Source: Candidatus Saliniplasma halalkaliphilum (GTDB taxonomy: Archaea; Thermoplasmatota; Thermoplasmata; Halarchaeoplasmatales; Halarchaeoplasmataceae). From it: a stretch of DNA of 37,138 nt. A program made the position numbers and the translations under genes. The notes under the pieces were generated by a model that ran no database searches, was not told the DNA's origin, and saw nothing but the letters and a program-made list of their open reading frames with translations. The stretch spans positions 1 to 37,138 of the forward strand of contig JAFDTG010000002.1 of NCBI GenBank assembly GCA_019594235.1, written 5' to 3'. Below, piece by piece: positions 25,247 to 30,871 of this stretch (positions are counted from its first letter, which is position 1; every line of letters starts with the position of its first letter).

Positions 25247-25651
25247 TCATTCATAGCTCTGATATAGAAGTATCGTTACAGCTACCGCAGCAAACAGATC
25301 CGGGAGAAACGTGAACGGTCCCAAACCTACTCCGTGCTTGAAGCCCAGTATAAGTGGTATGAAAGGATTGGAGAAAACGGCATATAGTAGAAGAGCAAAG
25401 CTGAAAATTAAAAGGCCGAGTGTGAATCTATTGGGCATCTCCCAGTATATAGACAGGTAGTTCCAGAGCAGAACAGCCAGTAGGATGAGGGTAAAGGAAG
25501 AGACGAACACTTTGATCCCCAGAAAAATTTCGAAATACATACGGTAAGTCCTAGTCGGTACTGAAACGGTCTTCAAAAATAGTAGAGTAAGCAGTACGCT
25601 TATCAATCCACCGATACCTAGTACGAGCATTAACTTTTTTTTCTTGTCCAT
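25247..25651 (-). CDS. Hypothetical 4-TM membrane protein, translationally coupled to the upstream wHTH regulator
   Basis: 134 aa from ATG 25651. AGGTGAT lies 4 nt upstream, inside the end of the regulator gene, and the regulator stop TAA (25653-25655) is 1 nt away. It has four hydrophobic helices. Confidence 0.6.
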   Translation of the reverse strand: MDKKKKLMLVLGIGGLISVLLTLLFLKTVSVPTRTYRMYFEIFLGIKVFVSSFTLILLAVLLWNYLSIYWEMPNRFTLGLLIFSFALLLYAVFSNPFIPLILGFKHGVGLGPFTFLPDLFAAVAVTILLYQSYE

Positions 25652-25652
25652 C

Positions 25653-25946
25653 TTAATCACCTTTCTTAGATTTTTTCATTATCTCATCCAATATATCAAG
25701 GCTGTCTTCCATCTGGTCAGTGAGAAAGTAGGTTTTTCCATACCCCTCTCCCATAGTGGTCAAAACGTGGTTTTCTAATAATAATTCAAGGTGGTGTTTA
25801 ACGGTCTTGTAATCAAGATCTAATTTTTTAGCTATCTGGTTCGCGTTCATCGGTTTTTCTTTCACAGCTTTTATTATACGGAGGCGGTTCTTTCCTCCTC
25901 TGGTACCTGCGATCAACCACCATAGGACCTTTCTCATCTGAACCAT
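25653..25946 (-). CDS. Small winged-helix (ArsR/HTH_24-like) transcriptional regulator
   Basis: 97 aa. LIAGTRGGKNRLRIIKAVKEKPMNANQIAKKLDLDYKTVKHHLELLLENHVL is an HTH signature. A TATA-like atttatt lies about 24 nt upstream of the ATG with no Shine-Dalgarno site, so it is probably leaderless with its own promoter. Confidence 0.75.
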   Translation of the reverse strand: MVQMRKVLWWLIAGTRGGKNRLRIIKAVKEKPMNANQIAKKLDLDYKTVKHHLELLLENHVLTTMGEGYGKTYFLTDQMEDSLDILDEIMKKSKKGD

Positions 25947-26030
25947 TATCTGTTAAATGCATCAAAGGTCAATAAATCTTCTGATAAATTGAGAAAAGGG
26001 TTTAGGAGAGGGGGACATCCTTTAACTGTC

Positions 26031-26429
26031 CTACGGACATTCGCCTCTCTGGTGCATATCACCGCGTCCTTGTTTCATATGTCCTCTGTGTTGTTGCATG
26101 TTTCCGTCTAGTTGGGGAAGTTCAGCCCCATAGTCCTCTACCATATTTCTAACCGTATCTCTGATCTCTTGCTGACTGGACCCGTTCTCTCTCATGGATA
26201 TCACTGTATCTATTATTTCCTGTTTCTGTTCATCTGTCAGATTCAGTCTATCGAGCATCCTTAATTTGGGTTCTTCAGTACATTCTCCATCGGAACGTAT
26301 GGTCTCTGTATCGGAGATACTTCGTTCCATGAAATCACCACTGTTATCGCTGGCCATGGATAGCCCAATCGCCCCTATCAATAATACAGCACCGAGGACG
26401 ACCCCTATCATTCCTATCTTCTTGTTCAT
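26031..26429 (-). CDS. Secreted or membrane-anchored LTxxQ-motif protein (Spy/CpxP/ZraP-like) with a His/Met/Cys-rich C-terminus
   Basis: From ATG 26429 (GGTG Shine-Dalgarno 6 nt upstream) the N-terminus MNKKIGMIGVVLGAVLLIGAIGLSMA is a signal or anchor. LNLTDEQKQEI is encoded at 26226-26240 (LTDEQ). The C-terminus is NMQQHRGHMKQGRGDMHQRGECP, and a GEC motif occurs twice. The track start at 26438 is a GTG. Confidence 0.6.
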   Translation of the reverse strand: MNKKIGMIGVVLGAVLLIGAIGLSMASDNSGDFMERSISDTETIRSDGECTEEPKLRMLDRLNLTDEQKQEIIDTVISMRENGSSQQEIRDTVRNMVEDYGAELPQLDGNMQQHRGHMKQGRGDMHQRGECP

Positions 26430-26460: not shown

Positions 26461-26517
26461 TATTTATATTAGTTTGCCGAATCAATTAACCAATTAAACC
26501 CGATTTAGACCCAATTT
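26461..26517 (-). promoter_or_regulatory. Promoter with an upstream 20-nt direct-repeat element (copy 1), in front of the LTxxQ gene
   Basis: The minus strand reads AAATTGGGTCTAAATCGGGT (26498-26517), then 19 nt, then GGCAAA (26473-26478), then cta, then ATATAAATA (26461-26469). The ATG lies 31 nt further on. The 20-mer is identical to 28932-28951 and has the same 19-nt spacing to GGCAAA. Confidence 0.55.
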
Positions 26518-26565: not shown

Positions 26566-27096
26566 TCAAATCCTTAAAGCTTTGAACACACTATAAAACA
26601 AGTTGGTCAATATTACCGCCAGAACTATCACTCCTAGGGAGATCAGCAGTGACGAAACGTCCCCAACCGGTTTGGGTTCTACAGATAACTCTTTACTCGC
26701 AGAACTTTCAGGCAGCATCTCGTCATTGTACTTCAAAACAGCGCTTACATTGTGAATACCCGCTTCTGCATCCCACGAGATCTCGTATGTATTCGACTCA
26801 CCAGCTTCCAGGGCGATACCTGATACGTTCCCGATCTCCATGTTATCGACCAAGTAAACCAATGTGAAGTTCTGTACCGGAACTGACCCGTTGTTTCGAA
26901 CAGTGGCGTTGATAGTAATCTCGTCATCTTCCAAAGGCTCATCGTTTGAAAACTCGAGCTTCTCTACTTTGATGTCCGGCCCAAAGGATGGACCTTGCCC
27001 ACCGGACTGACCTTCCACGATGGGGGTGATGAGCAAACTCATAAACAATACAAGAGCGAACAAGAGTCCTAGCTTAGCGGCTCTATCTGGCATCAT
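26566..27096 (-). CDS. CARDB-domain cell-surface protein with signal peptide and C-terminal TM anchor
   Basis: Signal LGLLFALVLFMSLLITPIVEG. A CARDB-like block follows: ITINATVRNNGSVPVQNFTLVYLVDNMEIGNVSGIALEAGESNTYEISWDAEAGIHNVSA. The C-terminal TM is SSLLISLGVIVLAVILTNLFYSVF. There is an ATGA overlap with the ABC-2 permease. Confidence 0.7.
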   Translation of the reverse strand: MMPDRAAKLGLLFALVLFMSLLITPIVEGQSGGQGPSFGPDIKVEKLEFSNDEPLEDDEITINATVRNNGSVPVQNFTLVYLVDNMEIGNVSGIALEAGESNTYEISWDAEAGIHNVSAVLKYNDEMLPESSASKELSVEPKPVGDVSSLLISLGVIVLAVILTNLFYSVFKALRI

Positions 27097-27911
27097 TCTC
27101 CTCTCCTCCTGTTAGCCAAGAAAAGCCCGAGCAGGAATAATATTATCGTATATCCCAGCATCACCATCAGGCCAGTATAGAAATCGGGAGCGAAAGTGGC
27201 CTCGAACCTATCGCCCGGTCCAAAACCAGAGGTCTGGGCTACGCCGAAAAAGTCAGTGATCAAACCCCCGTAGTATGTTATGATGAACCACGGTTCTATC
27301 TCCACCATTTTCATAACCTGTTCCGTAATAGGCATTATCATCATGAGTGAAAAGAAGCCCAATAGGGTGGAGGTTATAGCCCCTTTGAGTATACTGCTGA
27401 AGAAAAAGATAAGGCTCACTGCTCCACACATGTAGAGTATCGAGAACAGATATGATTTGAGAAATTCTGTAGATATTTCGCTCAATCCATACACGTACTG
27501 TATCTCCAAAGCCGTTACCAAATAATATATGGTTAAAACTGAAAGTGTCGAAACTACAGACGCGATGTATTTTCCAACAAAAATACTGTTATGGTCTTGC
27601 GGAGTTGGAAACAATATCAAACCCGTCCTGTTCTCGAATTCTAAAGAGATTATGTCCCCAGCGAAGAGTGCTCCGGAGATGATGATCAAAAGATTAGCGA
27701 AACCTAAGTTGAGTTGTGCGAAATCTCCAGCGGTTTCTGCCAACCCTATATCCCATATAGTTGGGATGAGATAGAATACGGACGCTAATGCTATCGCCAT
27801 AAGAACAGCCATCTGTATCCTGTTCCGTCTGTAATGTTTAAGTAGCTCGAATTTAGTCGATAAAAATGTGTCGTAAATATCGCTCTTCACTTTGTTCATC
27901 ACTTTCGTCAT
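27093..27911 (-). CDS. ABC-2 type transporter permease (NosY/COG1277-like)
   Basis: 272 aa with about 6 TM helices. ATGA overlaps occur on both sides, with the ATPase and the CARDB gene. Confidence 0.7.
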   Translation of the reverse strand: MTKVMNKVKSDIYDTFLSTKFELLKHYRRNRIQMAVLMAIALASVFYLIPTIWDIGLAETAGDFAQLNLGFANLLIIISGALFAGDIISLEFENRTGLILFPTPQDHNSIFVGKYIASVVSTLSVLTIYYLVTALEIQYVYGLSEISTEFLKSYLFSILYMCGAVSLIFFFSSILKGAITSTLLGFFSLMMIMPITEQVMKMVEIEPWFIITYYGGLITDFFGVAQTSGFGPGDRFEATFAPDFYTGLMVMLGYTIILFLLGLFLANRRRGE

Positions 27912-28879
27912 AGGTTTCCCCCCTTCTTATTAACAAGAGATATATAGAAATCTTCAAGGTCTTGCTTTCCACTTGAATATGAGATGACATCGAAACCCTC
28001 TTTGATCATGTTCGATAAAATCTCAGCTTGATTACTTTTGTCTTTGCTGTTGTATATAGTTGCAGTGTTTCCCTCTACCTTTACTTTGTTTATACTATTC
28101 AAGGAACTCAATTTTTTCCTTTCTTCTTTTGACAAGGGATTCAAGAATTCTACGGTTATCTTCTTATGCTGAGAATCACCAGCAAATTTGTCTATATCAT
28201 CGTAGGCCATCACTTCTCCATTGAAGAGGAATATCACTTTATCACATGTTTTACTCACTTCTTCAAGAAGGTGTGAACTCAAAAAGATCGTTATCTCCTT
28301 TTCTTTCAAATTGCGTATGAGCTCCCGCACCTCTTTTATACCCTCTGGATCAAGACCCATCACCGGTTCATCCAGTATCAATATCTCGGGAGAAGGCAGC
28401 AGTGCTAAACCTATGGCCAATCTCCTCCTCATACCCGTACTGAACTCCTCTATCTTTTTATGTTCCCAATCCTTTAGTTTCACAGTTCTTAAAACCTGTT
28501 TTATCTTTTTTTTGATTCTATCTGTACCCATCCGGTAGACCCTCCCATAATGAGTCAGGAGTTCGTGAGGAGTTAGATAGTCATACATCCCCGGTACCTC
28601 GATGAGGGCCCCGACATAACTCAAAGCGTGGGTCGGATCTTTAAACACATCTATTCCGTTGATATAAGCGCTGCCTGAGGTGGGTGATAATAAGTTGGTC
28701 AGTAGTTTGATCGTGGTTGTTTTACCTGCTCCATTGGGTCCTAGATAACCTACAACATCTCCTTTTTTGACTTTAAAAGAGACTCCTTTCAGTGCTGTTA
28801 GGTCTCCATATCTTTTAACAAGGTTTTCAACCTTGATCGCATTTCCATTATCCGATAGCCTATTCATCATTATACCCAT
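27908..28879 (-). CDS. ABC transporter ATP-binding protein (ABC-2 subfamily) with a C-terminal accessory domain
   Basis: Walker A GYLGPNGAGKTTT, signature FSTGMRRRLAIG, Walker B ILILDEPVMGLD and H-loop SSHLLEE. The track start at 28966 adds 29 aa that are unlike ABC N-termini and that contain a promoter-like element. I place the start at M30 (28879), or at M33/M34 (28870/28867). Confidence 0.85.
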   Translation of the reverse strand: MGIMMNRLSDNGNAIKVENLVKRYGDLTALKGVSFKVKKGDVVGYLGPNGAGKTTTIKLLTNLLSPTSGSAYINGIDVFKDPTHALSYVGALIEVPGMYDYLTPHELLTHYGRVYRMGTDRIKKKIKQVLRTVKLKDWEHKKIEEFSTGMRRRLAIGLALLPSPEILILDEPVMGLDPEGIKEVRELIRNLKEKEITIFLSSHLLEEVSKTCDKVIFLFNGEVMAYDDIDKFAGDSQHKKITVEFLNPLSKEERKKLSSLNSINKVKVEGNTATIYNSKDKSNQAEILSNMIKEGFDVISYSSGKQDLEDFYISLVNKKGGNL

Positions 28880-28894
28880 CTTCACCCATCTTAC

Positions 28895-28951
28895 TTTTAA
28901 TATCAATTTGCCAAATTTTAAGGAGAGTTTCACCCGATTTAGACCCAATTT
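28895..28951 (-). promoter_or_regulatory. Promoter with an upstream 20-nt direct-repeat element (copy 2), in front of the ABC-2/CARDB operon
   Basis: The minus strand reads AAATTGGGTCTAAATCGGGT (28932-28951), then 19 nt, then GGCAAA (28907-28912), then ttg, then ATATTAAAA (28895-28903). Candidate ATGs lie 15, 24 and 27 nt further on. Confidence 0.5.
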
Positions 28952-28962
28952 CGATATCCTTT

Positions 28963-29505
28963 TCATCCATCTATTACACCATTAGTTCTTTTCATCATCC
29001 ACTCTATAACAAATCCCATCAATCCAACGAATATTATTGTAAGCGACAACCTTGCCAGCATGAACTCAGGACCTAAAAACTGAAGTTCCACCATCTCCTG
29101 AGGTATCTTGATACACGCCCAGGCCGATAGGAACACTACGATGTTGGATATCCGAGCACCTTTCTTGATCAAAGTAGATGCCATCGGAAACGCGACGTAC
29201 AGGGGTCCAGTGGGTAAAGTACCGAATAAAATCGCTAGAAAAAATCCTTTAGAACCAGAAGCTTTACCGAGATGCTTCACAACTGTTTCTTCAGGTATGT
29301 AAACGGAGAACAGCCCCATCAACACCATCACCGCAGGAAGTATGAATGCCATCTCCGTCAGGTAATCCATAGAAGTGTTAAAAACCGCTCCTCGTCTATC
29401 AGGGTAGATGGAGACCAGGATCAGTGCAACGATGAACATCCCAGCCAATAACATCCAATTCCGGATCATCTTCTTCTTATTTTCCTTCTTTTTCTCCTCC
29501 TTCAC
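28963..29505 (-). CDS. Split permease subunit B2 (COG0701 / PF03773 family), lacking the Fe-S tail of B1
   Basis: Paralogue of 23781-24500 (see that entry). The GTG start overlaps the A2 stop by 4 nt. An alternative ATG at 29469 (MIRNWML...) exists. Confidence 0.7.
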   Translation of the reverse strand: MKEEKKKENKKKMIRNWMLLAGMFIVALILVSIYPDRRGAVFNTSMDYLTEMAFILPAVMVLMGLFSVYIPEETVVKHLGKASGSKGFFLAILFGTLPTGPLYVAFPMASTLIKKGARISNIVVFLSAWACIKIPQEMVELQFLGPEFMLARLSLTIIFVGLMGFVIEWMMKRTNGVIDG

Positions 29506-29984
29506 AGTATCACCCCTATCAATATAGCGATGATGATAGCTATAATGAAACTTAGACCATTTCTTAGAAGAGCAAACTTCTTGCCTAGTATTTTTATCTC
29601 CATGGGCAGGGTGACTATCCCTATCATAGTCAGTGTAGTTATGAAGGCGGCCACGGCCATAACTGTAGCACCGCTTTCAAGCATCGAAGCAGCAAGTGGA
29701 AATGCTATAAGAGCGGGTATATGCAGCACAGCACCCACCGCCCCAACAAGTAAAACACCTAGGATGCCCGACTGCTCACCTACGAATCGTGATATCTCCG
29801 CTGGAGGTACGAACCCCAGCATCAATCCTATTATTATTATGATAATGAGTATCGTCGGTAAAATACCGAATAACGATTTAGCTGCCTTTTTCAACGATTT
29901 AACCGCTTTATCTCTATCCCTATAGAAGCCATAGATCAAGCAGACCAGAGCGAATGCATTGATTAATATGGCTGTGATACTCAT
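29502..29984 (-). CDS. Split permease subunit A2 (COG0701 / PF03773 family)
   Basis: 160 aa, paralogue of A1. There is an ATGA overlap with the upstream cupin gene, and GGTGGA lies upstream of the ATG. Confidence 0.7.
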   Translation of the reverse strand: MSITAILINAFALVCLIYGFYRDRDKAVKSLKKAAKSLFGILPTILIIIIIIGLMLGFVPPAEISRFVGEQSGILGVLLVGAVGAVLHIPALIAFPLAASMLESGATVMAVAAFITTLTMIGIVTLPMEIKILGKKFALLRNGLSFIIAIIIAILIGVIL

Positions 29985-30271
29985 CCGTCCACCTTTTCGA
30001 CCTGTATTCCCAGTAGTTTCACTCCTTTCTCCGTTTTCATCGAATACAAACCGGGTTCAGAGATCAAGCATTCACCTTCTTCCAAAGTCGCTTTATCATC
30101 ATCCACTGTGATCTCAACTTCGCCTTCCAGTACTATAAATATCACGTGTGACGACATATCGCAGGGCGGTATCTTATCACCCTTCGACAGCTGTATGTGT
30201 CTCGCTTTGAACTCGTCTCGTTCGTAGATCAGTTTCTTGCCTTCTATCTCTTTCAAATTATACGTTTCCAT
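29981..30271 (-). CDS. Small cupin-domain protein
   Basis: 96 aa from ATG 30271 (GGAGGTGA 5 nt upstream). The beta-barrel pattern HIQLSKGDKIPPCDMSSHVIFIVLEGEVEITVDD...EGECLISEPG resembles cupin_2. Confidence 0.6.
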   Translation of the reverse strand: METYNLKEIEGKKLIYERDEFKARHIQLSKGDKIPPCDMSSHVIFIVLEGEVEITVDDDKATLEEGECLISEPGLYSMKTEKGVKLLGIQVEKVDG

Positions 30272-30650
30272 CTTTTTCACCTCCAAATTCTTTCTCATAA
30301 AAACTGGTCATCTTCTCCATCATCCTTTTACGCTCCTTGATCATCTCGAGCCAGCTCTTCAGATGTCCCCTCCCCTCTTCGGTTATACGGTAAACTCTTT
30401 TATCCGGGCCGGTGTCACTTTTCTTCCAATCTGACCTAAGTAGTCCTTTCTCCTCCATCCTTCTCAGTGTCGTGTACATCGTTCCAGATTTGATCTTGTG
30501 TCTCCCCTCGCTCAGTTCCTCGATCCTTTTGATGACACCATATCCGTGCATGGGTTTCTCACAGACCACACGCAGTATCAGGAACTGCAGCCATCTACCT
30601 TCTGGGTAACCATGAGGATGTTTACATTTCTGTTTCGATTTTTTACACAT
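30258..30650 (-). CDS. PadR family transcriptional regulator (module 2) with a Cys/His-containing N-terminal extension
   Basis: PMHGYGVIKRIEELSEGRHKIKSGTMYTTLRRMEEKGLL is the PadR signature. From ATG 30650 the N-terminus is MCKKSKQKCKHPHG. The track start at 30668 is a TTG 6 codons upstream. Confidence 0.85.
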   Translation of the reverse strand: MCKKSKQKCKHPHGYPEGRWLQFLILRVVCEKPMHGYGVIKRIEELSEGRHKIKSGTMYTTLRRMEEKGLLRSDWKKSDTGPDKRVYRITEEGRGHLKSWLEMIKERKRMMEKMTSFYEKEFGGEKDGNV

Positions 30651-30871
30651 CGATATACTATGTAACAATGTTAGATATATCGTTTTCCCTAGGATGAAAA
30701 ACTAAGAGACCAAATAATCAGGACGAAATAAACTAAGCTCATCGTAAATAAATCGTTTAATTTTTGAAAACCCATTAAAATCATAGAGAACGATTTGAAC
30801 TTTGATATTTCATATCGAAATTTTAATTAGTCTGTTATAGTATAGTGTTATATTCTTTAGGAGGGTTAAAC

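What the first reader, a model, noticed from the sequence alone, without database searches (positions are those of the whole stretch)
26461..26517. Identical 20-nt direct-repeat element at identical spacing upstream of two promoters (LTxxQ gene and ABC-2/CARDB operon)
- The minus strand reads AAATTGGGTCTAAATCGGGT at 26498-26517 and again, 20/20 identical, at 28932-28951.
- I saw no other copy in the window.
- The element is itself two 9-nt direct half-sites, AAATTGGGT and AAATCGGGT, with an 11-nt period (one helical turn).
- In both copies it is followed by exactly 19 non-conserved nt, then GGCAAA, then 3 nt, then a TATA-like ATAT(A/T)AA(A/T)A.
- This is the layout expected for an upstream activator or operator site on two co-regulated archaeal promoters. 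It defines a small regulon: an extracytoplasmic LTxxQ protein plus an exporter with a CARDB surface protein.
- Candidate binders encoded nearby are the wHTH regulator (25653-25946) and the two PadR proteins.
Basis: seen in the sequence. Interest (0 to 1): 0.65.

Follow-up and report, generated by a model that had tools for sequence, protein, structure and literature searches.

The report
Conserved operator array of archaeal regulator
The repeated 20-base element is real. It is the strongest part of a row of 11-base repeats that runs up to the TATA box of two promoters, and it is most likely the docking site of the small DNA-binding protein encoded next door. That protein, with its membrane partner and this site, recurs in salt-loving archaea of at least two phyla.

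Summary
**Observation confirmed.** AAATTGGGTCTAAATCGGGT occurs twice in the window, 20/20 identical. There is no other copy in the 1.39-Mb, 69 %-complete genome. Both copies are followed by 19 nt, GGCAAA, 3 nt and a TATA-like box.

**Anatomy.** The 20-mer is units 1-2 of four in-phase 11-bp units (consensus RAWTYGGGTCT). Unit 4 (ATTYGGCAA) ends 4 nt before the TATA box.

**Conservation.** The same array, at the same spacing, precedes:
- the orthologous LTxxQ-motif gene in five relatives from three genera;
- the ABC-2/CARDB operon in three relatives from two genera.

**Likely binder.** A recognisable version sits beside homologues of the adjacent 97-aa ArsR-fold winged-helix protein in 10 haloarchaeal loci (including Haloferax, Salinigranum and Haladaptatus), one further MAG and about 10 metagenome contigs. 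The strong and TATA-proximal units lie about 11, 22, 33 or 44 bp apart. Target genes, membrane partners and PadR vary; the winged-helix protein is the constant. It is therefore the likely binder (about 0.75). Sites lie only upstream of the BRE/TATA position, which slightly favours activation; this is untested.

**Known or not.** I found no literature on the motif, DUF8036 or DUF7342. The scan had already noted the LTxxQ / winged-helix / membrane-protein module in another genome, but not the operator.

The parts
26498..26517 (-). Units 1-2 (AAATTGGGTCT AAATCGGGT) of the array at the promoter of the LTxxQ-motif gene. This is the reported 20-mer, copy 1.
   Evidence: 31.5 bits. Conserved in 5 relatives.
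26474..26497 (-). End of unit 2, weak unit 3 (AATTGGTTAAT) and TATA-proximal unit 4 (TGATTCGGCAA).
   Evidence: The 11-nt register is shown. ATTCGGCAAA is conserved. The block is not a generic promoter feature.
26461..26469 (-). TATA-like box ATATAAATA of the LTxxQ-motif gene. It lies 31 nt before ATG 26429, with AGGTGT (Shine-Dalgarno) in between.
   Evidence: Invariant in six genomes.
26031..26429 (-). Target 1: a secreted or anchored protein of 132 aa with an LNLTDEQ motif and a His/Cys-rich tail.
   Evidence: PF07813, 18.9 bits, below the 24.3 cut-off; Spy model, 26 bits, cut-off 174. The AlphaFold2 model has low confidence.
28932..28951 (-). Units 1-2 of the array at the promoter of the ABC-2/CARDB operon. 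This is the reported 20-mer, copy 2.
   Evidence: 27.5 bits.
28908..28931 (-). End of unit 2, weak unit 3 (AACTCTCCTTA) and TATA-proximal unit 4 (AAATTTGGCAA).
28895..28903 (-). TATA-like box ATATTAAAA of the ABC operon. In-frame ATGs follow at 28879, 28870 and 28867, so the mRNA is probably leaderless or has a very short leader.
   Evidence: The orthologue in L025 cannot start upstream of its array.
26566..28879 (-). Target 2, an operon of three genes: ABC ATPase (27908 to 28870 or 28879), ABC-2 permease (27093-27911) and a membrane-anchored CARDB protein (26566-27096).
25653..25946 (-). Candidate binder: a 97-aa ArsR/SmtB-fold winged-helix protein with no Cys and no alpha5 metal ligands.
   Evidence: HTH_5, 35.1 bits, above the 22 cut-off. 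(pLDDT 92; CzrA TM 0.65). Co-occurs with the motif in all informative loci.
25247..25651 (-). Four-TM membrane partner (DUF8036, PF26119). Its ATG lies 1 nt after the stop codon of the winged-helix gene.
   Evidence: Found directly downstream of the winged-helix homologue in 45 of 92 fetched loci.
25970..25980 (-). The winged-helix operon's own promoter (AAGATTTATTG). It lies 23 nt before ATG 25946 and carries no array.
   Evidence: Invariant in six genomes.

Best explanation
The 20-mer is the high-affinity end of a cis-regulatory array of four helically phased 11-bp direct repeats (RAWTYGGGTCT). The array runs from about 55 bp to 4 bp upstream of the TATA box at two promoters.

**Binder.** It is the binding site of the neighbouring 97-aa ArsR-fold winged-helix protein (25653-25946). 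Several copies of that protein would sit on one face of the helix, nucleating on strong units 1-2 and extending to weak units 3-4 beside the BRE/TATA position.

**Input.** The regulator has no ligand-binding residues of its own. It probably receives its signal from the co-translated four-TM DUF8036 protein.

**Output.** The regulon is an extracytoplasmic LTxxQ-motif protein plus an ABC-2 exporter with a CARDB surface protein. That points to an envelope- or metal-stress-type response.

**Sign.** All sites lie upstream of the BRE/TATA position, so I favour activation by recruitment of TFB/TBP (about 55:45 over repression).

**Shown:** the anatomy, its uniqueness in the genome, the conservation, the phasing, and the co-occurrence with the regulator.
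**Inferred:** binding itself, the role of the membrane partner, the sign of regulation and the signal.
For: 1. **Uniqueness and promoter association.**
2. **Footprint in orthologous LTxxQ promoters.** Six genomes from three genera show conserved units 1-2, ATTCGGCAAA, the TATA box and the Shine-Dalgarno site, with divergent flanks.
3. **The second promoter is conserved too.**
   - In genus g8 (L025, L024) the ABC-2/CARDB operon carries AATTTTGGTCTAAATATGGT, 19 nt, GGTAAA, 3 nt and a TATA box.
   - In same-genus G001 (L021) the strong units lie 22 bp closer to the TATA box, an in-phase shift.
4. **Phasing.** Laid out in 11-mers, 26 promoter sites show a unit-like block ending just before the TATA-like box, with the strong unit about 11, 22, 33 or 44 bp upstream. 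The Haloferax row was entered one base off; its 44 bp was read directly. In the weight-matrix offset profile of 21 of these sites, scores peak at -11, +11, +21/22 and +32/33.
5. **Co-occurrence with the winged-helix protein.** The motif lies next to its homologues beside varied targets:
   - LTxxQ-like genes in Salinigranum, Halapricum, a Natrialbaceae MAG, MAG196 and Haloferax;
   - SHOCT plus CARDB plus MacB-type ABC operons (L028, L031);
   - a small SHOCT-like gene in Natronomonas (L029);
   - a secreted protein in Haladaptatus and a Halobacteriales MAG, which have a different membrane partner;
   - about 10 metagenome contigs.
   PadR is absent from all the haloarchaeal loci.
6. **Regulator family.** The recognition helix (D/G)YKT(V/I)(K/R)HHL and the GTRGG-NR motif are conserved across the family. 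The fold is ArsR/SmtB; AspA, an ArsR-like archaeal DNA-binding protein solved in complex with its centromere DNA, is also a fold hit.
7. **Positional rule from the literature.** Archaeal activators bind upstream of the BRE (PMC5512572; PMC4706686).
Against: - No binding, transcription-start or expression data exist.
- Characterised ArsR/SmtB proteins, as I know them, are dimers on 12-2-12 inverted repeats and act as repressors. A direct-repeat array and activation would both be atypical for the fold.
- The winged-helix operon has its own conserved promoter without the array, so the classic autoregulation signature is missing.
- Units 3 and 4 are weak. Unit 4 could simply be a gene-specific BRE.
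- The genome is 69 % complete, so the regulon may be larger.
- All lineages that carry the motif and have a known source are halophiles, so some of the 'conservation' may reflect horizontal transfer of the whole cassette rather than independent retention.
Confidence: 0.75

Rival explanations
1. The same array and the same winged-helix protein, but acting as a repressor. Cooperative spreading from units 1-2 down to unit 4 would occlude the BRE/TATA position. A signal sensed by DUF8036 would sequester the protein at the membrane (SdpR/SdpI or Mlc/PtsG logic) and derepress the LTxxQ and ABC genes.
For: - The ArsR/SmtB fold is that of metal-sensing repressors such as CzrA and SmtB.
- The SdpR autorepressor model is the second-best NCBIfam hit.
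- AspA, an ArsR-like archaeal protein solved bound to its centromere DNA, is a fold neighbour.
- The TATA boxes look strong (ATATAAATA).
- Strong distal and weak proximal sites fit concentration-dependent spreading.
Against: - No unit overlaps the TATA box or the expected start site in any of the 26 sites laid out.
- In archaea, sites upstream of the BRE usually activate.
- The SdpR hit is far below its cut-off (31 vs 100 bits).
- No autoregulatory site sits on the regulator's own promoter.
Confidence: 0.33
2. The array is bound by a different regulator: one of the two PadR proteins in the window, or an unlinked factor. The winged-helix protein would only be a neighbour.
For: - PadR genes lie within about 1.3-3.7 kb of both copies, and PadR is also present in L021, L024 and L025.
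Against: - The haloarchaeal loci that carry the motif have no detectable PadR, including the Haloferax, Salinigranum, Halapricum, Halodesulfurarchaeum and Haladaptatus loci.
- All of them do encode the winged-helix protein within 1-4 kb.
- From my own knowledge, PadR operators are inverted repeats.
Confidence: 0.1
3. The identity is a historical by-product: a recent duplication of one promoter cassette inside this genome, with no dedicated factor.
For: The match is 20/20, with further identity in GGCAAA and the TATA box, and the copies lie only 2.4 kb apart.
Against: - The 19-nt spacer and the flanks are unrelated between the copies, while the repeat units are kept.
- Both sites exist in other genera with the units conserved and the spacers diverged.
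Confidence: 0.03
4. An RNA-level element: a 3' UTR or terminator of the upstream genes, or a 5' leader structure.
For: Each copy lies just after the stop codon of the upstream gene (11 nt and 48 nt).
Against: - No Rfam hit at E up to 1 over the element.
- Folding energies equal those of shuffled sequence on both strands (z between -0.01 and +1.8).
- The element sits upstream of the TATA box, so it is outside the target transcript.
- Upstream genes differ between lineages, while the downstream gene is constant.
Confidence: 0.02

Closest known systems
EarA binding sites at the Methanococcus maripaludis fla promoter (PMC5512572)
   Same: Several short repeated recognition sequences lie immediately upstream of the BRE/TATA of an archaeal promoter. 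They serve a dedicated small regulator that is needed for transcription.
   Different: - EarA sites are four 6-bp boxes; here the units are 11 bp, helically phased, with a G-rich core.
- I do not know EarA to be ArsR-like.
- The EarA target is the archaellum operon, and no membrane partner is involved.
- The sign of regulation is unproven here.
ArsR/SmtB metalloregulators (CzrA, SmtB, CadC) and non-metal members (HlyU, PagR)
   Same: - The fold matches: Foldseek finds CzrA at TM 0.65, E about 7e-4.
- The HTH_5 hit is above Pfam's threshold.
- The recognition helix carries the family's xxHHLxxL signature.
   Different: - No alpha3N or alpha5 metal ligands; the protein has no Cys at all.
- The NCBIfam metalloregulator model scores below its cut-off (33 vs 55 bits).
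- The operator is a tandem direct repeat upstream of the promoter, not a 12-2-12 dyad over it.
- The N-terminal LWWLIAGTRGGxNR motif is particular to this family.
SdpR/SdpI of Bacillus subtilis, and membrane sequestration of regulators in general (Mlc/PtsG, sigma-E/RseA). From my own knowledge.
   Same: A small ArsR-type regulator without a sensor domain is encoded together with a polytopic membrane protein. The targets are extracytoplasmic or export functions.
   Different: - No sequence link between DUF8036 and SdpI was looked for or found.
- The SdpR model scores 31 bits against a cut-off of 100.
- The regulator's own promoter lacks the operator.
- Sequestration is pure inference here.
PhoB/OmpR-type pho boxes (from my own knowledge)
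   Same: Winged-helix proteins bind tandem direct repeats of about 11 bp, head to tail on one face of the helix, just upstream of the core promoter.
   Different: They belong to a different winged-helix class with a receiver domain, are bacterial, and contact sigma-70.
AspA, the centromere-binding protein of Sulfolobus plasmid pNOB8 (PDB 5k5q, 4rs8)
   Same: It is an archaeal ArsR-like winged-helix protein and a fold hit. From my own knowledge, it spreads as many dimers along DNA from a nucleation site.
   Different: Its nucleation site is palindromic and its function is plasmid partition, not promoter control.
Cpx/Spy/CpxP and ZraPSR envelope-stress systems of Proteobacteria (from my own knowledge)
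   Same: An LTxxQ-motif extracytoplasmic protein is the prime regulated output of a membrane-linked sensing system encoded next to it.
   Different: - Those systems use two-component kinases.
- Membership of the archaeal protein in the LTXXQ family is unconfirmed (below Pfam and NCBIfam cut-offs; low-confidence model).

Membership tests
Transcription-factor operator (cis-regulatory site) | Non-random, promoter-associated occurrence | tested here: met
   Two copies, both at a fixed distance from a TATA-like box. Zero matches expected by chance.
Transcription-factor operator (cis-regulatory site) | Conserved in orthologous promoters while the flanks diverge | tested here: met
   Six genomes for the LTxxQ promoter. 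Four genomes for the ABC promoter.
Transcription-factor operator (cis-regulatory site) | Co-inherited with a specific regulator | tested here: met
   The motif lies next to winged-helix homologues in Thermoplasmatota, 10 haloarchaeal loci, MAG196 and about 10 metagenome contigs. Targets and partners vary between them.
Transcription-factor operator (cis-regulatory site) | Physical binding by the factor, and an effect on transcription | not testable with these tools
   Needs EMSA, footprinting, ChIP or a reporter assay.
Archaeal BRE/TATA promoter | TATA box about 25 nt upstream of a mapped transcription start | not testable with these tools
ArsR/SmtB family (the candidate binder) | Winged-helix fold a1-a2-a3-aR-b1-b2-a5 | tested here: met
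   AlphaFold2 pLDDT 92.4, with helices 4-13, 18-30, 35-41, 46-58, a beta hairpin and C-terminal helices 77-81 and 83-93. The best PDB matches are CzrA, HlyU, CadC and SmtB.
ArsR/SmtB family (the candidate binder) | Profile match above the curated threshold | tested here: inconclusive
   Pfam HTH_5 scores 35.1 bits against 22, which is met. NCBIfam HTH_metalloreg scores 33.4 against 55, which is not met.
ArsR/SmtB family (the candidate binder) | Metal- or metalloid-binding ligands (alpha3N Cys, alpha5 Asp/His) | tested here: not met
   The sequence has no Cys. Its only His residues are the two in the recognition helix. It is therefore not a metal sensor of the classical kind.
ArsR/SmtB family (the candidate binder) | Imperfect 12-2-12 inverted-repeat operator overlapping the promoter | tested here: not met
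   The G-rich cores (GGGTCT) point the same way in successive units and lie upstream of the TATA box.
LTXXQ / Spy-CpxP-ZraP family (target 1) | Profile match and helical-cradle fold | tested here: inconclusive
   - PF07813 scores 18.9 bits against a cut-off of 24.3.
- The Spy model scores 26 against 174.
- Haloarchaeal counterparts give no Pfam hit.
- The AlphaFold2 model has pLDDT 53 and shows only one helical hairpin.
SdpR/SdpI-type membrane sequestration | SdpR-family regulator plus SdpI-family membrane protein, and an autoregulated operon | tested here: not met
   The SdpR model scores 31 bits against 100. The partner is DUF8036, not SdpI. The regulator's own promoter lacks the array. The analogy of mechanism remains possible.

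The most novel reading that the evidence does not exclude
The array is the DNA end of a widespread, undescribed archaeal signalling module. A sensor-less ArsR-fold winged-helix protein (family signature LWWLIAGTRGGxNR ... YKTVRHHL) would be controlled by a small polytopic membrane partner (DUF8036, or a three-TM alternative). It would switch on extracytoplasmic LTxxQ-type proteins, CARDB surface proteins and exporters. That would make it an archaeal functional counterpart of the bacterial sigma-E/RseA or Cpx envelope-stress responses, using phased head-to-tail binding that is atypical for the ArsR fold.
Probability: 0.3. Interest if true: 0.8.

Novelty: new variant of a known kind. Interest (0 to 1): 0.6.

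Why it matters
- **An open field.** To my knowledge, envelope or extracytoplasmic stress signalling in archaea is almost uncharted. Few archaeal regulators have both a defined operator and a defined regulon.
- **A concrete model.** This work yields an operator (RAWTYGGGTCT units at 11-bp phase ending beside the BRE/TATA position), a candidate regulator family (747 cluster representatives at E up to 1e-10) and a recurring set of targets: LTxxQ-motif proteins, CARDB proteins and ABC exporters.
- **Testable in a cultured genus.** The module, with its site, is present in Haloferax isolates (sp. CBA1149/MBLA0077). The prediction could therefore be tested by deletion, ChIP and reporter assays rather than remaining a metagenomic inference.
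- **A gene-model correction.** The ABC ATPase starts at about 28870-28879, not 28966. The apparent seven-gene operon is therefore split into two transcription units.

Tried and rejected
- **Dispersed repeat or mobile element: rejected.** There are only two copies.
  - The 2-mismatch hits in relatives G017 and G021 are unrelated. In G021 (L006) the hit lies at the 3' end of a 441-aa ORF that looks like a transposase (no family search run). The four G017 hits sit at contig ends.
- **Generic promoter consensus: rejected.**
- **RNA element: rejected.**
- **Dyad-symmetric reading (GATTT-N6-AAATC): considered and set aside.** The AT-rich unit starts are partly self-complementary, but the G-rich cores all point one way. 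I therefore keep the direct-repeat reading.
- **Fold test of the LTxxQ protein: failed.** The model has pLDDT 53, so no fold search was run on it.
- **Metagenome scan with the winged-helix alignment.** It returned only distant homologues (about 50 % identity). These were still useful, because several carry the motif.
- **Literature.** Searches for the motif, DUF8036, DUF7342, LTXXQ in archaea and archaeal envelope stress found nothing on this system.
  - The genome search closed, so there are no whole-genome regulon scans in relatives or in Haloferax.
  - The fetch from genomes regions closed, so the short contigs of G009, G027 and G031 could not be extended.
  - The look-up of sequencing runs closed, so there is no read-based start-site or expression evidence.
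Full report
**1.

- The minus strand carries AAATTGGGTCTAAATCGGGT at 26498-26517 and at 28932-28951.
  - There is no third match at up to 3 mismatches, and none in 100 shuffles.
- Each copy is followed by 19 unrelated nt, GGCAAA, 3 nt and ATATAAATA or ATATTAAAA (read).
- The window is contig C36 of a 1.385-Mb, 115-contig, 69 %-complete genome with about 40 % G+C.
- In that whole genome the degenerate pattern with 2 mismatches finds only these two sites.
- A two-unit weight-matrix scan gives 31.5 and 27.5 bits for them. The next site scores 18.1, and the reversed/complemented-genome control peaks at 18.3.
- A single half-site occurs 26 times, about what I calculate from base composition.

**2. 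Gene context**

All genes below are on the minus strand:

| Coordinates | Gene |
|---|---|
| 30258-30668 | PadR |
| 29981-30298 | cupin |
| 28963-29984 | two half-permeases (ArsP_1) |
| copy 2 of the element | |
| 27908 to about 28870 | ABC ATPase |
| 27093-27911 | ABC-2 permease |
| 26566-27096 | CARDB protein |
| copy 1 of the element | |
| 26031-26429 | LTxxQ-motif protein |
| 25653-25946 | 97-aa ArsR-type winged-helix protein |
| 25247-25651 | four-TM protein |

- The long ORF that starts the ATPase at 28966 would place copy 2 inside coding sequence.
- In the orthologous operon of another genus (L025) the ATPase ORF cannot extend upstream of its own copy of the element.
- In L021 the ATPase ORF likewise starts downstream of its element.
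- The true start is therefore 28879, 28870 or 28867, and copy 2 is intergenic.
- The closest named relative of the membrane protein is from 'Candidatus Natronoplasma' (78 % identity).
- The related contigs are labelled Thermoplasmatota archaeon. I infer that the organism is a halophilic member of the Thermoplasmatota.

**3. The 20-mer is part of a longer phased array**

Written in 11-mers:

- LTxxQ promoter: AAATTGGGTCT AAATCGGGTTT AATTGGTTAAT TGATTCGGCAA acta ATATAAATA
- ABC promoter: AAATTGGGTCT AAATCGGGTGA AACTCTCCTTA AAATTTGGCAA attg ATATTAAAA

- Units 1-2 are the reported 20-mer. Unit 3 is weak.
- Unit 4 is not a generic BRE. Of 51 ATATWAAWA boxes that precede ORFs in this genome, only these two have GGHAAA at -9 or WTYBGG at -13.

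**4. Phylogenetic footprint**

- Before genome search closed, a scan of 60 relatives found near-identical elements in G001 (same genus), G009 (genus g5), and G027 and G031 (genus g8). A fifth relative, L023, came from the genome scan.
- All lie upstream of the orthologous LTxxQ-motif gene, which is followed by the same winged-helix and four-TM genes.
- The alignment of six genomes shows no conservation upstream of the element. It then shows conserved units 1-2, ATTCGGCAAA, an invariant ATATAAATA, AGGTGT and the ATG.
- In g8 the gene upstream of the LTxxQ promoter is a different permease. The element therefore travels with the downstream gene.
- The second promoter is conserved too.
  - In g8 (L025, L024) the element reads AATTTTGGTCT AAATATGGTCT AATTAGGCATA TAATTTGGTAA atat ATATAAAAT. 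It lies in the 83-nt gap between the half-permease and the ABC ATPase.
  - In G001 the ABC promoter reads GAATTTGGTTT GATTTCGGTCT AAATTTGGTAT attt ATATAAAAA. The strong units are 22 bp closer to the TATA box, still in phase.

**5. The constant partner is the winged-helix protein**

A genome-collection scan with the winged-helix alignment gave 38 loci. A metagenome scan gave 53 more. A recognisable array lies beside the homologue in the following loci:

| Locus and organism | Array (as read) | Gene downstream |
|---|---|---|
| L026, Salinigranum | GATTCGGGGTC AATTTGGGTCT AACTCCGGACG ... | LTxxQ-like |
| L030, Halapricum | contains AATTTGGGTCTAACTCCGG | LTxxQ-like |
| L027, MAG196 | GATTTGGGTCT AAGTTGGCAAA AAATTCGGAAA atct ATTTAAATA | LTxxQ-like |
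| L032, Natrialbaceae MAG | begins AATTTGGGCCT | LTxxQ-like |
| L112, Haloferax | AATTTGGGTCT ... AAGTTCGGCAA at +44 | LTxxQ-like |
| L028 (Halodesulfurarchaeum), L031 (Halobacteriales MAG) | contains AATTTGGGTC(C/T)AACCCGG | SHOCT, then a CARDB 506-aa protein, then a MacB-type ABC exporter |
| L029, Natronomonas | contains AATTTGGGTCGGACCCGG | small SHOCT-like ORF |
| L039/L040 (Haladaptatus), L045 (Halobacteriales MAG) | GATTTGGGTGA GATTCGCGCCG AATGTTGAAAA in L039 | secreted protein |
| About ten metagenome contigs, e.g. L096 | GAATCGGAAGA GATTTGGGTAT AATCAGGAGTG ATTTCGGTAAA tcag TATATAC | varied |

- In the Haladaptatus-type loci the membrane partner is a different three-TM protein.
- Targets, partners and neighbours vary. 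PadR is found only in the Thermoplasmatota loci. The winged-helix protein and the motif are constant.
- The distance from the strongest unit to the TATA-proximal unit is about 11, 22, 33 or 44 bp in the different lineages.
- A weight matrix built only from the strongest unit of each of 21 promoters gives mean-score peaks at offsets -11, +11, +21/22 and +32/33. Peak values run from -2.8 to -10, against a background of -16 with SD 3.8.

**6. The regulator and its partner**

- The protein matches Pfam HTH_5 above threshold. Its best sequence matches in the PDB are CzrA and other ArsR-family chains.
- It folds with pLDDT 92 into the ArsR/SmtB topology.
- Its best structural neighbours are CzrA, HlyU, CadC and SmtB. 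AspA of pNOB8, an archaeal ArsR-like centromere-binding protein solved on its DNA, is also a neighbour.
- It has no Cys and no alpha5 His or Asp ligands, so it is not a classical metal sensor.
- The family is marked by LWWLIAGTRGGxNR and the recognition helix (D/G)YKT(V/I)(K/R)HHL.
- It has 747 representatives at E up to 1e-10 among 1.84 billion clusters.
- Some relatives are fused to PAS arrays. The DNA-binding module is thus combined with different sensor modules.
- Here the sensor candidate is the DUF8036 protein (PF26119).
  - Its start codon lies 1 nt after the regulator's stop codon.
  - It follows the regulator in 45 of 92 fetched loci.
- The regulator operon has its own invariant TATA-type promoter (AAGATTTATTG, 25970-25980), 23 nt before the ATG, without any array.

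**7. Mechanism**

*Shown:*
- A unique, conserved, helically phased array ending 4 nt before the TATA box of two promoters.
- Co-inheritance of that array with one regulator family.

*Inferred:*
- The regulator binds head to tail in several copies on one DNA face. It nucleates on the strong units and reaches the weak unit next to the BRE/TATA position.
- All sites are upstream of the BRE/TATA position. In archaea that is the usual place for activators that recruit TBP/TFB (PMC5512572; PMC4706686).
  - I therefore favour activation at about 55:45.
  - SdpR-like repression by spreading over the BRE is the main alternative.
- The signal is unknown. The outputs are a secreted LTxxQ-motif protein with a His/Cys-rich tail, CARDB surface proteins and exporters, and the partner is a membrane protein. 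Together these point to an extracytoplasmic stress.

**8. Rivals**

- A different binder such as PadR is made unlikely by its absence from the haloarchaeal loci.
- A recent internal duplication is excluded by the cross-genus conservation, in which the spacers have diverged.
- An RNA element is excluded by position, by the lack of an Rfam hit and by shuffle-level folding energies.

**9. Novelty**

- Full-text searches found nothing on the motif, DUF8036, DUF7342 or an archaeal LTXXQ regulon.
- The database names are 'hypothetical protein' and 'ArsR family transcriptional regulator'.
- Earlier first-reader notes of this scan had flagged several related points, but none described the operator:
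  - the module in another genome (e1-5066933);
  - the corrected ATPase start on this window (e1-4539965);
  - the coupling of the regulator and membrane-protein genes on this window (e1-4539967).
- I class it as a new variant of a known kind. It is a regulator-operator pair, but with a direct-repeat phased array that is atypical for the ArsR fold, a membrane partner, and conservation across Thermoplasmatota and haloarchaea.

**10. Limits**

- There are no binding, start-site or expression data.
- The genome is incomplete.
- All source lineages that can be placed are halophiles, so horizontal transfer may inflate the apparent breadth.
- LTXXQ-family membership of target 1 is unconfirmed.

Noticed in passing
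window 28867-28966 (minus strand): The ORF call that starts the ABC ATPase at ATG 28966 (an ATGA overlap with the half-permease stop) is almost certainly too long. The 29-33 extra codons contain the array and the TATA box. Orthologues in L025 and L021 start downstream of theirs. This splits the apparent PadR-to-CARDB operon into two units.
   Followed up: yes
window 25970-25980 (minus strand): The winged-helix/DUF8036 operon has its own promoter, AAGATTTATTG(A/G)CC. The first 11 bases are invariant in six genomes. It lies 23 nt before the ATG, so the transcript is probably leaderless, and it has no array. A T-rich stretch (CCCTTTTCTC, 25991-26000) follows the LTxxQ gene and may act as a terminator.
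   Followed up: partly
L005, L018, L019, L020 (G017) and L006 (G021): The 2-mismatch hits AAATCGGGTTAAAATTGGAA in two relatives are unrelated to the operator. In L006 the hit lies at the 3' end of a 441-aa ORF that looks like a transposase (no family search run). The four G017 hits sit at contig ends, as expected for a multi-copy insertion sequence.
   Followed up: partly
L028:2268-7050 and L031:2193-6720: Haloarchaeal version of the system as one cluster: array, SHOCT membrane protein, 506-aa CARDB protein, MacB-type ABC ATPase, FtsX/MacB permease, winged-helix protein, DUF8036. A CARDB protein plus an exporter recurs under this motif with a non-homologous ABC type.
   Followed up: partly
P0172, P0186, P0191, P0212, P0221, P0225, P0239: A sister branch of the winged-helix family (LILGQKGGxNRIQII ... 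NYRT(I/V)KHH) is fused to long C-terminal regions of up to about 430 aa. By eye these look like arrays of PAS domains, but no family search was run. The same DNA-binding module would then be wired to cytoplasmic sensor domains instead of a membrane partner.
   Followed up: no
L112:4890-6411 (Haloferax sp. CBA1149/MBLA0077, VZUS01000001): A cultured Haloferax carries the full module, in this order: an array with 44-bp spacing; a 201-aa protein with two LTxxQ-like repeats and a His-rich tail (WP_151136433); the winged-helix protein (WP_151136435); DUF8036 (WP_195759376). H. elongans and H. gibbonsii have DUF8036 homologues.
   Followed up: partly
window 25247-25651 (minus strand): My reading of DUF8036 by eye is N-in with four TM helices. 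That places the highly conserved motif Y-x-(E/D)-(M/L)-PNRFT in the cytoplasmic TM2-TM3 loop, and SNP-x-(I/V/L)-P-L-(I/L)-(L/M)-GF-(K/R)-H in the outer TM3-TM4 loop. These are candidates for the regulator-binding and signal-sensing surfaces.
   Followed up: no
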